Source: a virus
Taxonomy: Duplodnaviria; Heunggongvirae; Uroviricota; Caudoviricetes
DNA length: 64,000 nucleotides
IMG/VR virus record: IMGVR_UViG_2850796239_000011
Location: 1 to 64,000 of that record
Strand: one strand, 5' to 3'
Shown here: positions 51,403 to 63,516 of the stretch, piece after piece
How positions within the stretch are numbered: the stretch's first letter is position 1
How the letters are laid out: each line of letters begins with the position of its first letter
Translations under genes and position numbers: made by a program
The notes under the pieces: model-generated
Database searches by the model: none
What the model saw: the letters and a program-made list of their open reading frames with translations, nothing else
What the model was told of the DNA's origin: nothing

Positions 51403-52112
51403 CAGGTGATCCCCCTGTTCGTGGCGCTTCGTCTGTCAGCGTCTGACGGTTGTGTCACCGACGCCGTAACTGACTGCGTTTTAACCGATGCGGCCCCTTT
51501 TGCTTTATCGTTGTCCGTGGGAGACGACTTATCCGTACTTCCCACTGACACCTCTCCTGTATTCATTACGGTCTGAAATACCGCAGTAACCGTCAGTAAG
51601 GTCGGACCATTATTACTTCGCATTCGGTAGTCATATTTCACAAGGTCGCAGGATGTCCATGTCTTGTCCGGCGTCTCAATATCGTAGAGTCCTGCCGTGG
51701 TACGCATCCTTTCAAGCGTTTCCAGCACATTCGTCCGCGAGGTGGTGGAAAAATTTGTCAGGTTCGGGACGGATCCGGAAAAGGCCGTCCACCCCTCTAC
51801 AGTGAAAGTCACATGCAGTTCCGGCGATCTCTGGATTTTATTAAAGGTGGTATAAGCCCCCTGCTCCACGGGGACGGTGGAAACAGAAGCCTCCGCGCCC
51901 ACCTCAACGACAACAAAAGAATCCGGGGAGAAAGGTTTGCCACCCTTCTGATGGGCACCTGCCGGATCATTCCGTGCGTAATAAATACCGAATGACGGTG
52001 CCAGTACACTGTTAATGAGTCCCAGGACACCGCCGCCACGAACTGCACTCAGTACGTTACTTTCACTGAGCGAAAAGTTATTCAGGGAAATATTATCGAA
52101 AGAAAAACTCAT
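51402..52112 (-). CDS. Tail protein downstream of tape measure (putative)
   Basis: 236-aa ORF. Confidence 0.45.
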
Positions 52113-53599
52113 CCTGTTACCCCGCTGGAATAAACCGACACAAGCGCCGAATTCGTGATACGCCGACGTGCGTCATCGGTAATACCCTTCACATTGTCCG
52201 ACGTTGTGGTGACATTCAGTGTCCCGATATGCGTGGTTTCCGTTACGGTGGACTGCGATACAGGCGCAGGATGGCGCGACCGTATGGCCATTGCCGCACC
52301 CGGATAAGGCAGGTTCGCCAGCACCCGCGGAATATAGTTGCGGGTCTCCTCCGGAGCAGCAGCCAGTCCCTTACGCTGAACATTTCCCTCTCCCCAGTTA
52401 TATGCCGCCAGAGCCTTAGCCAGATCGCCATGAAAAAAACGTATCAGGCCACCAAGTTTTCTCGCGGCGGCATCAGCGGCTTTTTCGGGATCAAAGGCAT
52501 CGTTCCCCTCAGACCAAATTCACTGGCCGTCTTCGGCATGAACTGAAACAGTCCCATCGCACCAGCAGGTGAGACGGCAAACTGATTACCACGGGATTCG
52601 GTGATCGCAACGCTGCGCAGCAGTCCGGGCGGCAGGTTATATTTTTCCTCCAGTTGAGACAGTTTCGGTTGCAGCCAGCCTAACAGGGCTTCCCCGGTCT
52701 TCGTCGGTCGCTGGCGGTTTTGCATGGCATTACCGAGTTTTTCCTGCGTCGCACGCATACCCTGTAGCCAGGATTCACCGAAGGCTGCTTCCCTCCCGGT
52801 TGCCTGAGAAGCCTGAGTATCCAGCATGCCCTGCTGCCATACTGTGGGTGATTGTGCCCGGGTGATGTTGCCAGGCTTTTCTCCGGCATCCAGTTTTGTC
52901 TGATACGTCTCCATCTCTTTCTTATTGAAAAAGAAAGTCCCGTCTGAAGCCCAGAAAAAACCATGTGAATCCAGCCAGTCCTTATTTTCCCTGCCAACAA
53001 TGGATGTCAGTAATCCGTCAACAACCGGGTAAAGCGCCGTTATCGCAAAAAGAAGGCCTCCGGGGCCACTGAGGGCTTTTGTCAGCCCCCCGCACCCATG
53101 ACGCCACTTTCAGCCCGATCAGCGTAATAATGGCATTCTGCCAGCCCCCCAGTTCTCCGGCAGCCTTATTCGCCAGGGAGGCCACTGACTCAACGTCATT
53201 CAGAAATGTGGTGATAAACCTGTTCACTTCCTCCGGATGTTGCTGCATCCAGTCACCGAGTGTCTCCAGCCAGTGGCTGAGCTTCAGCGCGTACGGCATC
53301 AACGCGGTGCTAATCGTCATCCCGATGCCGGACCAGGTCTGATCGAGCTCAACAAGCTCTTTTCGTAGCTTACGGGCCAGCGCTATACGCCCCGGCGTAA
53401 CCTGCGAACGGGAAGTAAATTCGTCCACATCTTTCAGCGCATGACCGGAGCCAAGAAACTGCTGTCCGGCATAACTGAAGCCCAGCGCGTTGCCGTAGGC
53501 AGTTTGTTCGGACTTTGTCAGTCGCGGAAAAATAACCGCCAGCTTGCGCATGATGGCTTCAGTGCTGTCAGTATTTAAATCAACACTAGGCTGTGTCCC

Positions 53600-54115
53600 T
53601 TAATTACGTAAGCGTTGATAAAAGAGTCGGATGCAGCCCAGTTTCACCATCGCCAGGTAATTTCTCGCCGTTTTGTCGTAACGCGTGGCGATGCGGCGAT
53701 ATTCTTTCAGCCGCCCAAAGCACCGTTCAACGACATTACGATTGCGGTACGCATCACGATCAAGCTGTGCACGTCCATCCGATGCCATTTTCTCATTTGA
53801 CTTTCGGGGGATTACTGCCTTTATACCGTTATTTTTCAGCTCGTTGCGCAATGCGCGCCCTGAATACGCTTTATCAGCCAGTACCGCATGTCCACGGCGT
53901 TTCATGCTGCCGTTCTGACGCTGAACGCCAATCCCGTCCAGAAGTCGTTGCGCGAACTGGCTTTCATGAGCTTGTCCGGGGCTTAGCACGATATTTAACG
54001 GGAGGCCACTTCCGTCTGTTGCCAGATGGATTTTGGTGCCAAAACCGCCGCGAGAGCGACCCAGCCCATTATCTCCGTCGATATCGGGATGTTTTTTTGA
54101 GCACCGGCGGCACAT
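53600..54115 (-). CDS. IS5-family transposase OrfB (DDE domain), -1 frame relative to OrfA
   Basis: 171-aa ORF 'GLGRSRGGFGTKIHLATDGSGLP'; overlaps orfA across 'CAAAAAAAC' (54092-54098). Confidence 0.7.
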   Translation of the reverse strand: MCRRCSKKHPDIDGDNGLGRSRGGFGTKIHLATDGSGLPLNIVLSPGQAHESQFAQRLLDGIGVQRQNGSMKRRGHAVLADKAYSGRALRNELKNNGIKAVIPRKSNEKMASDGRAQLDRDAYRNRNVVERCFGRLKEYRRIATRYDKTARNYLAMVKLGCIRLFYQRLRN

Positions 54116-54444
54116 TTCAGCGCCCGGATATTACTGCCATCCAGCGCGGTGGCAGACCAGTCAATAAAGCCGTTTGCATCAAGTAGCGAAAGCAACCTGT
54201 TGAAAATAATATTAATCACGCCTGACTTTGACCATCGGTTAAAGCGGTTATAAACAGTTTTCCATGACCCATATCGTTCGGGTAAATCGCGCCATGGTGC
54301 ACCGGAACATAACACCCAGAACATGCCATTGATGATTTTACGGTGCTCAGCCCATGGGCGTCCGGCCCGTGGTGTGGCGGGTTCAGGAGGTAACAGGGGC
54401 TTGATGATGGTCCATGCCTCATCGGGAAGGTCGTAGCGAGCCAT
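53995..54444 (-). CDS. IS5-family transposase OrfA (N-terminal domain)
   Basis: 149 aa 'MARYDLPDEAWTIIKPLLPP...GAPWRDLPERYGSWKTVYNRFNRW'. Confidence 0.7.
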   Translation of the reverse strand: MARYDLPDEAWTIIKPLLPPEPATPRAGRPWAEHRKIINGMFWVLCSGAPWRDLPERYGSWKTVYNRFNRWSKSGVINIIFNRLLSLLDANGFIDWSATALDGSNIRALKCAAGAQKNIPISTEIMGWVALAAVLAPKSIWQQTEVASR

Positions 54445-61360: not shown

Positions 61361-61361
61361 A

Positions 61362-62699
61362 TCAGTAACCTCGTTTCAGTTTTGCACCGGGGAAATCTGC
61401 CGCAAACGTCGATGCGCTGGCCTGATCCATCGCCACACGAGGAGAGGATTTGGCCGTCTGCTTCTGCTCAACGGCAAACTTCACCATGCTGCGGTACGCA
61501 CCGGGGTGAATACCCTGAATATCGATCCCCGTCTGTTCCAGCGCGGTACGGTAAACATCTTCGGCGCAGTCCATCGCCACCACATCGCCAATCAGCGGTC
61601 GCACTTCAGCTTCAGCCACACGGACGGCGCGGAAATTTTCAGCAGCCCGTTTCGTTGCCTGGTCAGTTGCCAGCCTGATTGCTGCATCCATCGCAGGTTT
61701 ATCGACTTTCACATCGTCGGGTTTCACATCAGCCTCTTTTGTTTCGGGGGCTTCGTCGGTTGTCGGAGACAGTGCGGATTTAATTTTTTCCAGCACATCA
61801 TCAGGAACTTTGCCGGACAGCAACGCCAGTACACTTTCCATCGGGCTGTCGGTATCAAATGCCTTCGACTCGTCAGTTAACCCGGTATCATCATCCCCGA
61901 CCAGCTCCGGTACGGCTTCTGCTGATTCCATCAGTTGCGCCAGCTCCGCCGGTTCAATATCCATATCCTGTGCCAGCCGTTCGCTGTAAGCAGTTTTTAC
62001 CGCGCTGGCGATAGCTGCCGGACGCTTATACTGTAACAAATCCCCGGGAGCCGCATCCTGCGCCAGACGCGGCGCAAGATAGGTTCCCAGCGCGGTAAGC
62101 ACCGCCACTTCTTTTTTACTCAGTTTCATGCGTTTTAGCTCCTGAGGGAGAGAGTCCATAACAAGACAGTCCGACCCTACCCGGCCATCGCCGACCAGGG
62201 CCACATGATTTCCCACGATATTCCGCATAACGCCGTCATACGGCTCACCGTCGGGGGTGGTTCCCGGCGTCATATCTGCCACATAGGCATATGACGATGA
62301 GATTTCCCGTTGTTCATCCGTTTCTATCCCCGCGATGGCGGAGTTGTCCCAGATGGACATGCCGTTAACCAGATAGGTACCGTCAAACTCGCTGTTGGCA
62401 TGAGTCGTCCCCACCCGGTACTCGCGCGCGGGCGCGCCCGGATAATCGGGTTTGTGTCGGCACAGGACGGGAATATTGTTGAAGGTTGAAACTGCCTTGC
62501 GCAGTTCATCGGGGTCACGGTAAAGCTGATAAAGTTTTTTGGGGTCGAGTCCCAGCGCTTCCGCCCCCGGTATTTCATACCCGAAATAACCGCAGACGTT
62601 CGCCTTGCTGAGATTACTGCGCTCAATCTGGAGGCGACCGACTTTATCGAACTGCCTTACCGATGCCCGGTCAAACGCCAGCATTTCGGTAATAATCAT
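61362..62699 (-). CDS. Prohead protease/scaffold protein (Mu gpI-like, putative)
   Basis: ORF trimmed to '[19 protein letters not shown]'; acidic scaffold-like C-terminal half. Confidence 0.55.
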
Positions 62700-63516
62700 T
62701 TTTTCTCCAGTCCGGGAATAACGGCCTCCCAGCCACACCGGCAGTTGATTTCTTCGCCCGGCAGTACCCACTTACCATCCAGAAACATCCCCTTTCGCAG
62801 GTCAAACCGTTTACCGTTCGCCTTCACATGCGACGGACGCCATGTTTTACCCGCGCGGGAATGCCTCCAGACACCTTCAGTGATACCCACCGAACGCTGT
62901 CTGGCGGCCTGCATTACCGACGTTGCCTTATTGTTCTGGTCGCGGGCAATCAGCGCCGCGCGCCGTCGTGTGATGCCGTAACGTTTTTCCAGTTCATCGG
63001 TCAGCGTTTTCAGGTCACGTCCCCGGCCAACAGACTGCATGACCAGTGTTTCCACCTGGGTGAGATGTTGCTGCGGGATGGAGCGAATGAGGTTCACATT
63101 CTCCGTGATGCTGGCCTGAAGTGCGGTATTCATCTCCGTTGTCATACGGAAAGGAACCGTAAACCCGGCATCACGGAGCGCAGTGTACAGTGACGCATCG
63201 CTGTTTTTCAGGACATCACCGGCAAACCGCCTCGCCAGCCGCAGGGCCATTTCGTCAAAATTTTTCTGCCAGCGCCGGGCAAGTTGCTGCATGGCACCAC
63301 GCATCAGGTTAACGGGGACGCATCCTGCGCGAGGTCTGTTTTACGGTACTCAGCCCGCAGCCAGTAAAGTACACTGTTGTGCATCCCACTGACGGCATTA
63401 TCCAGTTGTCTGCGGTACCAGGCCTCAATCCCCGCGTTGGGTGAAATCCGCCTCAGGGTCTGCATTCGGGCCTTGCGGCGGATTTTCTTCGGTGTTGTCA
63501 ATTTCAGTGTCGTCAA
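62696..63516 (-). pseudogene. Mu F-like head morphogenesis protein, frame broken at a homopolymer
   Basis: 70-aa N-terminal ORF ('GIEAWYRRQLDNAVSGMHNSVLYW') and 202-aa C-terminal ORF abut; restored if the G4 run at 63314-63317 were G5. Confidence 0.6.

What the first reader, a model, noticed from the sequence alone, without database searches (positions are those of the whole stretch)
52109..63516. Same homopolymer-indel pattern in the myovirus-type remnant
The tape measure gene has two shifts (C6 at 53086-53091, C4 at 52505-52508), the Mu F-like gene one (G4 at 63314-63317) and a small head gene one (C5 at 59734-59738). Together with the lambdoid cases and IS629 orfA this makes eight indels, all in G/C runs, in both directions. 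The consistency favours a systematic cause (sequencing chemistry or a polymerase slippage bias).
Basis: seen in the sequence. Interest (0 to 1): 0.5.

Follow-up and report, generated by a model that had tools for sequence, protein, structure and literature searches.

The report
Long-read homopolymer errors faking prophage frameshifts
Five of the six single-base frameshifts in this Shigella prophage remnant are missing bases in short C/G runs that appear only in this long-read-only assembly, so they are sequencing artefacts; one frameshift, an insertion-sequence (IS) element and a 12-bp deletion are genuine.

Summary
Two more lie in the major head gene (59857-60, 59898-902).

The window is from CP026875.1, by inference Shigella boydii ATCC 35964 from a PacBio-only CDC genome set.

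IS-fragmented assemblies of the same clone (Logan SRR3793777, GCA_012668945.1), probably short-read, match 38.7 kb of the window with 0 substitutions and 0 insertions. They differ only by 7 one-base deletions in the window. All 7 lie in G/C runs whose true length is 5 or 6. Five of them are in this finding: 52505-08, 59734-38, 59857-60, 59898-902 and 63314-17.

Four of those five sites are also under-called in other long-read-only assemblies of different strains (CP026836, CP026824, an NCTC assembly). No assembly built from raw sequencing runs (the Logan set) carries any of the five; for 59857-60 the only comparators are the two same-clone assemblies.

The single +1 (C6 at 53086-91), the IS5-family insertion (53589-54503), the 12-bp deletion (after 62032) and every substitution are reproduced in independent assemblies, so they are real decay.

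Verdict: a known consensus artefact laid over a genuinely decayed prophage. Low interest, except as a quality warning of roughly 900 false indels genome-wide by extrapolation.

The parts
52109..55048 (-). Tail lytic-transglycosylase / tape-measure-like gene. It is 673 aa when intact; here it is in four pieces plus an IS element.
   Evidence: The intact orthologue L002:3110-5131 carries an SLT domain (Pfam) and matches phrog_2013 'lytic tail protein' and phrog_2276 'tape measure'. Window ORFs are 71 + 156 + 177 aa, then the IS, then 188 aa.
52505..52508 (+). C4 run, true length C5. Artefactual 1-base deletion.
   Evidence: C5 is present in all 8 independent contigs that cover the site (L004-L010) and in the E. 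coli references. C4 is otherwise seen only in the error-rich NCTC long-read assembly L013.
53086..53091 (+). C6 run, ancestral C5. Genuine +1 frameshift.
   Evidence: The 177-aa product ended by this shift is carried by 8 other contigs, 7 of which were retrieved. These include S. boydii ATCC 9905, GCA_003572355.1 and Logan assemblies of five runs. None differs from the window at this site.
53589..54503 (-). IS5-family insertion (915 bp, 3-bp CTA target duplication). Genuine.
   Evidence: It is absent from L001 and L002. Independent contigs end inside its termini. It is identical to a plasmid copy whose transposase is annotated with a programmed frameshift.
59734..59738 (+). C5 run, true length C6. 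Artefactual deletion in a 115-aa head-module gene (phrog_2085).
   Evidence: L015 and L016 have C6 and an intact 115-aa ORF. The same under-call occurs in CP026824.1.
59857..59860 (+). C4 run, true length C5. Artefactual deletion in the last codons of the major head gene.
   Evidence: The resulting 345-aa product exists on only one contig among about 15 billion proteins, the source itself.
59898..59902 (+). C5 run, true length C6. Artefactual deletion 16 codons before the end of the major head gene.
   Evidence: The same under-call occurs in CP026824.1.
59841..60878 (-). Major head protein gene (342 aa when intact; phrog_264). Its C-terminus is scrambled by the two artefacts above.
62032..62033 (+). 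Junction of a genuine 12-bp in-frame deletion in the DUF2213 / head-maturation-protease gene (445 aa versus 449 aa).
   Evidence: Present in L015 and L016 as well. Absent from L001 and L002.
63314..63317 (+). G4 run, true length G5. Artefactual deletion in the Mu F-like head morphogenesis gene.
   Evidence: L015 and L016 have G5 and an intact gene. The 53-aa frameshift product exists on only three contigs, all from the CP0268xx submission block: CP026875, CP026836 and CP026824.
62696..63516 (-). Mu F-like head morphogenesis gene (229 aa when intact). It is split here only by the artefact at 63314-17.
18504..18508 (+). Outside the finding, same artefact class. C5, true length C6, in the lambdoid ClpP/capsid fusion gene.
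   Evidence: L021, L019 and L022 have C6. The 492-aa truncated product occurs only in the source.
23815..23819 (+). Outside the finding, same artefact class. C5, true length C6, in the lambdoid DUF1441 gene.
42265..42268 (+). Outside the finding. Probably the same artefact.
   Evidence: L032 and L034 have C5. This is weaker evidence, because multi-copy IS elements collapse in draft assemblies.

Best explanation
The window comes from a closed, long-read-only assembly that was not polished with short reads. The record is CP026875.1, inferred to be Shigella boydii ATCC 35964 from the CDC PacBio set of 59 historical Shigella strains. The consensus caller dropped one base in a fraction of G or C runs: about 6% of 5-mers and about 36% of 6-mers in this window. 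In this finding that produced five false frameshifts, at 52505-08, 59734-38, 59857-60, 59898-902 and 63314-17. They make the Mu F-like gene, the major head gene, a 115-aa head gene and part of the tail transglycosylase gene look decayed.

Beneath these errors the prophage is a genuine remnant. The tail transglycosylase / tape-measure-like gene carries a real IS5-family insertion and a real +1 frameshift (C6 at 53086-91). The DUF2213 gene carries a real 12-bp in-frame deletion.

Shown: the five deletions are absent, and all other variants are present, in independent assemblies; the under-calls recur in other long-read-only assemblies. Inferred: the sequencing platform and strain identity of the source.
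For: 1. Same-clone comparison. Logan SRR3793777 (L015, L005) and GCA_012668945.1 (L016, L021) match the window over 38,706 bp with 0 substitutions and 0 insertions. They share its private markers: the 12-bp deletions at 62032 and 16012, the IS junctions and the C6. They differ only by 7 one-base deletions in the window.

2. All 7 deletions lie in G/C runs of true length 5 (3 of 50 runs) or 6 (4 of 11 runs). None of 133 A/T runs of length >=5 is hit (P = 2.8e-4).

3. Frameshift-specific products are private to long-read assemblies. The 345-aa head protein and the 492-aa ClpP fragment occur on 1 contig each. The 53-aa MuF fragment occurs only in CP026875, CP026836 and CP026824. The 156-aa SLT fragment occurs only in the source and an NCTC assembly. 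None occurs in Logan, whereas the intact forms are on hundreds of contigs.

4. Four of the five sites are also under-called in different strains' long-read-only assemblies, in a patchwork that does not follow relatedness. The NCTC assembly shows 26 deletions versus 2 insertions in 13.9 kb, concentrated in G/C runs >=5 (8 of 34).

5. Source identity. CP026876.1, the next accession, is a S. boydii ATCC 35964 plasmid. CP026832, in the same block, is cited as a PacBio genome of Kim et al. 2018. Yassine et al. [quoted passage not shown]

6. The residual indels left after HGAP3 assembly and Quiver polishing were reported as 'nearly all ... within G or C homopolymer regions' (PMC4832174).
Against: - I could not read the GenBank record or the raw reads, so the platform and strain of CP026875.1 are inferred from accession adjacency and the error signature.
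- The comparison assemblies may be sister isolates rather than the same culture.
- A 202-aa MuF product identical to the window's is annotated in the draft S. flexneri 1485-80 (EJZ64324.1). I could not retrieve that DNA. It may be an internal-start gene call, a 454 sequencing error or a real G4 allele.
- 9.5 kb of chromosomal flank (uvrB, the bio operon) shows no homopolymer indel. At the observed rate about 1.7 were expected, so this says little either way.
Confidence: 0.93

Rival explanations
1. All six indels are genuine slippage mutations that accumulated in this strain's prophage remnant (real pseudogenisation, possibly in a mismatch-repair-deficient stock).
For: The prophage is demonstrably decaying: the IS insertion, the real +1 frameshift at 53086-91 and the truncation after the baseplate J gene. 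Shigella genomes are rich in pseudogenes (general knowledge). G/C runs are real indel hot spots in mismatch-repair-deficient E. coli (PMC8510543).
Against: - There are 7 indels and 0 substitutions in 38.7 kb against same-clone assemblies. Even in mismatch-repair-deficient E. coli, indels are only 15% of point mutations (5,324 versus 30,061). That gives P about 1.7e-6 that all 7 events are indels.
- All 7 are deletions.
- None is in the 52 A/T runs of length >=6.
- The extrapolated load is about 930 indels per genome.
- The same sites are 'mutated' in unrelated long-read assemblies but in no Logan assembly.
Confidence: 0.04
2. The comparison assemblies are wrong and the long-read record is right.
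For: None specific. Some comparator drafts, such as ATCC 9905 from 2011, may come from homopolymer-error-prone 454 sequencing (my knowledge).
Against: Up to eight independent contigs from at least seven runs or assemblies agree with each other at the sites they cover. They also agree with closed E. coli references and with the intact reading frames of conserved phage structural genes. Short-read insertion errors at 5- to 6-base runs are rare and would not all restore ORFs.
Confidence: 0.01
3. The runs are functional slippery or phase-variable tracts, used for programmed frameshifting or as contingency loci.
For: The same tracts recur as variants in several assemblies.
Against: The orthologues are single intact ORFs on hundreds of contigs. 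The tracts are only 5-6 bases long. The variants are confined to long-read-only assemblies. The frameshifted tails are short and end in stops.
Confidence: 0.01

Closest known systems
Residual homopolymer indel errors in PacBio continuous-long-read (CLR) assemblies (HGAP/Quiver) that were not polished with short reads
   Same: The errors are single-base, overwhelmingly deletions, and concentrated in G or C runs. They create false frameshifts and pseudogenes, and they were reported for this very set of Shigella genomes (PMC8795385; PMC4832174; PMC4853030).
   Different: Nothing of substance. The runs affected here are short (5-6 bases), whereas the literature mostly emphasises longer runs.
Genuine prophage decay in Shigella (IS insertion plus slippage frameshifts)
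   Same: The IS5-family insertion, the +1 C-run frameshift at 53086-91, the 12-bp deletion and the loss of the tail-fibre module are real and are shared by the lineage.
   Different: Only one of the six homopolymer indels belongs here. The other five are not reproduced.
Pseudomonas phage E217 / PB1-like myovirus structural module (prophage found in E. coli, Shigella and Salmonella)
   Same: Pfam E217 gp27, gp28, gp31, Gp32 and GP41, Pa193 gp24, Mu F, Baseplate_J and SLT hits occur in the same gene order.
   Different: This only identifies the genes that carry the indels. Membership was not examined further.

Membership tests
Long-read (PacBio CLR) consensus homopolymer error | Absent from independent, probably short-read, assemblies of the same clone while all other variants are shared | tested here: met
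   0 substitutions and 7 one-base deletions over 38.7 kb against L005, L015, L016 and L021.
Long-read (PacBio CLR) consensus homopolymer error | Single-base, deletion-biased and confined to homopolymers, with G/C preference | tested here: met
   7 of 7 are deletions. 7 of 63 G/C runs >=5 are hit against 0 of 133 A/T runs >=5 (P = 2.8e-4). The NCTC assembly shows the same spectrum.
Long-read (PacBio CLR) consensus homopolymer error | Recurs at the same tracts in other long-read-only assemblies regardless of strain relatedness | tested here: met
   Sites 52505, 59734, 59898 and 63314 are shared variously with UGDX01000002, CP026824 and CP026836. Site 59857 is not shared.
Long-read (PacBio CLR) consensus homopolymer error | The source assembly was made from long reads without short-read polishing | not testable with these tools
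   Inferred only. The accession neighbour CP026876.1 is S. boydii ATCC 35964. CP026832 in the same block is attributed to the Kim et al. 2018 PacBio set. That set is described as not edited with short reads. The paper itself is not held.
Genuine slippage pseudogenisation | Reproduced by independent sequencing of the lineage | tested here: not met
   Met only for C6 at 53086-91. Not met for the other five sites.
Genuine slippage pseudogenisation | Accompanied by base substitutions in the proportion expected from mutation spectra | tested here: not met
   0 substitutions against 7 indels. The expected indel share is at most 15%.
Programmed frameshift or phase-variable tract | A two-frame architecture conserved in relatives, or a long hypervariable tract | tested here: not met
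   Relatives encode single intact ORFs. The tracts are 5-6 bases long.

The most novel reading that the evidence does not exclude
The sequenced ATCC 35964 culture really carries these shortened G/C tracts. This could be a laboratory stock with a deletion-biased, G/C-run-specific slippage defect, or short G/C tracts in this prophage family could be unusually unstable in several Shigella strains. The recurrence across assemblies would then be biological homoplasy.
Probability: 0.03. Interest if true: 0.35.

Novelty: not a real feature. Interest (0 to 1): 0.08.

Why it matters
This matters mainly as quality control. At the rate seen here (1.8e-4 per base), CP026875.1 would carry on the order of 900 false one-base deletions. 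These inflate pseudogene counts, break gene calls and distort allele-based typing, a problem already noted for this genome set.

For this prophage, the correction changes the biological reading. The head module (Mu F-like gene, major head gene, 115-aa gene) is intact. The real lesions are confined to the tail transglycosylase / tape-measure-like gene (IS insertion plus a +1 frameshift) and to the missing tail-fibre end.

The same tracts are probably mis-called in sister records: CP026824, CP026836, the NCTC assembly UGDX01, and the G7 tract annotated 'frameshifted' in CFSAN029787.

Tried and rejected
- Full-text searches for CP026875, its neighbouring accessions, GCA_002950355 and 'ATCC 35964' found nothing.
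- The Kim et al. 2018 announcement is not held. Supplements of three citing papers did not list the accession. CP026874 and CP026877 are not in the plasmid collection.
- I fetched 9.5 kb of chromosomal flank (ybhK, uvrB, bioABFCD, ybhB) to look for homopolymer frameshifts in housekeeping genes. It contains none, only a 2-bp non-homopolymer deletion in ybhK/yvcK. About 1.7 were expected, so the result is uninformative.
- The 192-aa and 98-aa lambdoid fragments, and the 202-aa MuF fragment, start downstream of their frameshift. They can therefore be called in intact genes, and I rejected them as diagnostics.
- I considered the shared C4 at 52505 in the NCTC assembly as evidence for a real allele. 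I rejected it because that assembly under- of 34 G/C runs >=5, so one coincidence is expected.
- I checked whether the split transposase of the inserted IS was another artefact. It is not: the copy is identical to one annotated with a programmed frameshift.
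Full report
**What is there.** Window 47978-64000 is the structural half of a myovirus-type prophage. Its gene set includes a portal, a Mu F-like head morphogenesis protein, a DUF2213 head protease, a cement protein, a major head protein, an E217-like sheath, tube and baseplate, and Baseplate_J. Intact copies at 99.7% identity exist in enteroinvasive E. coli. In strain FDAARGOS_943 (locus L002) every gene is annotated as intact.

**Checking the observation.** I aligned the window to L002 and L001.
- The window has C4 at 52505-08 (reference C5), C6 at 53086-91 (reference C5), C5 at 59734-38 (reference C6) and G4 at 63314-17 (reference G5).
- Two sites were missed: C4 at 59857-60 (reference C5) and C5 at 59898-902 (reference C6). 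Both are at the 3' end of the major head gene. Its last 15 residues are replaced by an 18-residue out-of-frame tail.
That gene is a 673-aa SLT-domain 'lytic tail protein' with tape-measure similarity.
- There is a 12-bp in-frame deletion after 62032 in the DUF2213 gene.
- There are about 17 substitutions.

**Where the window comes from.** Exact-protein look-ups place it in GCA_002950355.1, record CP026875.1 (5,164,076 bp); record position = window + 4,192,841. The next accession, CP026876.1, is a Shigella boydii ATCC 35964 plasmid. CP026832, in the same accession block, is cited as one of the PacBio genomes of Kim et al. 2018, '59 historical Shigella strains'. Yassine et al. [quoted passage not shown] The strain and platform of this particular record are therefore well-supported inferences, not something I could read directly.

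I looked up products specific to the frameshifts and to the lineage, which returned independent contigs. Their ends fall inside IS termini, the signature of short-read assembly. That is an inference, since the platforms of these runs are not known to me.
- Logan SRR3793777 contigs L015 (window 54482-64000, extending 2.4 kb beyond the window) and L005 (45755-53611), and GCA_012668945.1 contigs L016 (54513-64000) and L021 (3074-24448), belong to the same clone. They share the window's private 12-bp deletions (62032 and 16012), the IS junctions, the C6 at 53086-91 and every substitution.
- Over 38,706 bp they show no substitution and no insertion relative to the window, only seven one-base deletions in the window.
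- Five of the seven are in this finding: 52505-08, 59734-38, 59857-60, 59898-902 and 63314-17. The other two are in the lambdoid prophage: 18504-08 and 23815-19.
- With the extra bases, the Mu F-like gene (229 aa), the major head gene (342 aa) and the 115-aa gene are intact.
This is weaker evidence because IS copies collapse in draft assemblies.

**The genuine frameshift.** C6 at 53086-91 is present in every independent contig that covers it. These are S. boydii ATCC 9905, GCA_003572355.1 and Logan assemblies of SRR3793777, ERR200285, ERR200286, SRR1811688 and SRR8186612. It is a real, lineage-wide +1 frameshift in a gene that also carries the IS insertion.

**Error signature.**
- All seven unreproduced differences are deletions.
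- They hit 3 of 50 G/C runs of true length 5 and 4 of 11 of length 6. They hit none of 133 A/T runs of length >=5, 52 of which are >=6. The hypergeometric P is 2.8e-4.
- Six of the seven are C on the + strand. This simply reflects 184 C-runs versus 59 G-runs on that strand.
- The frameshift-specific products exist only in long-read assemblies. The 345-aa head protein and the 492-aa lambdoid ClpP fragment occur on one contig each, the source. The 53-aa MuF N-terminal fragment occurs only in CP026875, CP026836 and CP026824. The 156-aa SLT fragment occurs only in the source and the NCTC assembly UGDX01000002. None occurs in Logan, while the intact proteins sit on hundreds of contigs.
- Aligned to the intact reference, those other long-read assemblies come from different strains, with different substitutions and IS contexts. 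Even so, they under-call some of the same tracts in a patchwork: 52505 in the NCTC assembly; 59734 and 59898 in CP026824; 63314 in CP026836 and CP026824. A G7 tract is under-called in the NCTC assembly, CP026824 and CFSAN029787.
- The NCTC assembly has 26 deletions and 2 insertions in 13.9 kb, hitting 8 of 34 G/C runs >=5.
- Published experience matches. After HGAP3 and Quiver at 262x coverage, 205 residual indels 'nearly all ... within G or C homopolymer regions' were corrected with Illumina reads (PMC4832174). Quiver's weakness at homopolymers is noted in PMC4853030.

**Rivals.**
- Genuine slippage decay, even in a mismatch-repair-deficient stock, predicts substitutions. Such E. coli lines gave 30,061 substitutions against 5,324 indels (PMC8510543). 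Seven indels with no substitution then has P about 1.7e-6. This rival also predicts hits in long A/T runs and some insertions, and it would imply about 930 indels per genome.
- Errors in the comparison assemblies are implausible. Up to eight independent contigs agree with each other, with the closed E. coli genomes and with the intact frames of conserved structural genes.
- Programmed frameshifting or phase variation is excluded by single intact ORFs in relatives and by tracts of only 5-6 bases.

**Residual uncertainty.**
- I could not see the reads or the GenBank header.
- The comparison contigs may be sister isolates rather than the same culture.
- One 202-aa MuF product in the draft S. flexneri 1485-80 could not be inspected.
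- The 9.5-kb chromosomal flank carries no homopolymer indel, which is uninformative at the expected 1.7 events.

**Verdict.** The pattern is a known artefact of unpolished long-read assemblies, laid over a prophage whose true lesions are the IS insertion, one +1 frameshift, a 12-bp deletion and the loss of its tail-fibre end. Interest is low, and this is not a biological feature.

Noticed in passing
window 53589-54503: A 915-bp IS5-family element with a 3-bp CTA target duplication interrupts the tail transglycosylase / tape-measure-like gene. It is identical to a copy next to virK on the FDAARGOS_943 plasmid, whose transposase is annotated with a programmed frameshift.
   Followed up: yes
window 62032/62033 and 16012/16013: There are two genuine 12-bp in-frame deletions, one in the DUF2213 head protease gene and one in a lambdoid tail gene. 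The first is shared with SRR3793777 and GCA_012668945.1. The second is shared with GCA_012668945.1 but not with ATCC 9905, which marks the closest sister assembly.
   Followed up: partly
window 52142-63668: The real substitutions versus the E. coli prophage are skewed. Eight are A in the window where the reference has G on the + strand, against three G-for-A and one T-for-C. This may reflect strand-asymmetric C-to-T change on the coding (-) strand. The direction of change was not polarised with an outgroup.
   Followed up: no
L036 403 (record CP026875.1 about 4184303, 8.5 kb upstream of the window): ybhK/yvcK is split into 80 aa + 223 aa by a 2-bp deletion that is not in a homopolymer, relative to E. 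coli. The neighbouring uvrB, bioABFCD and ybhB are intact. I could not tell whether this is real or an artefact.
   Followed up: no
L001 8547-9130 (CFSAN029787, NZ_CP011416.1): The 'frameshifted' hypothetical protein in this RefSeq E. coli genome is caused by G6 where others have G7. The same tract is also under-called in the NCTC assembly and in CP026824, so it is probably another long-read artefact.
   Followed up: partly
L040 (CP026824.1 4659475-4671636) and L013 (UGDX01000002.1): These sister long-read assemblies are far worse than the window. They carry 18 deletions plus 11 insertions in 9 kb, and 26 deletions plus 2 insertions in 13.9 kb, across the same prophage genes.
   Followed up: partly
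window 2926-2929: The window has C4 just downstream of its 587-aa ipaH ORF (1060-2823), where FDAARGOS_943 has C5. That record's ipaHe is annotated 'frameshifted' while the window's ORF is open, so here the other record may be the one in error. No same-clone contig covered this site.
   Followed up: no
window 46561-49210: The myovirus prophage stops right after the baseplate J gene (47978-49210) and abuts an integrase gene (46561-47874). The wedge, tail-fibre and chaperone genes present in the NCTC strain (L013) are missing. The element is therefore a true remnant, independent of the indels.
   Followed up: partly
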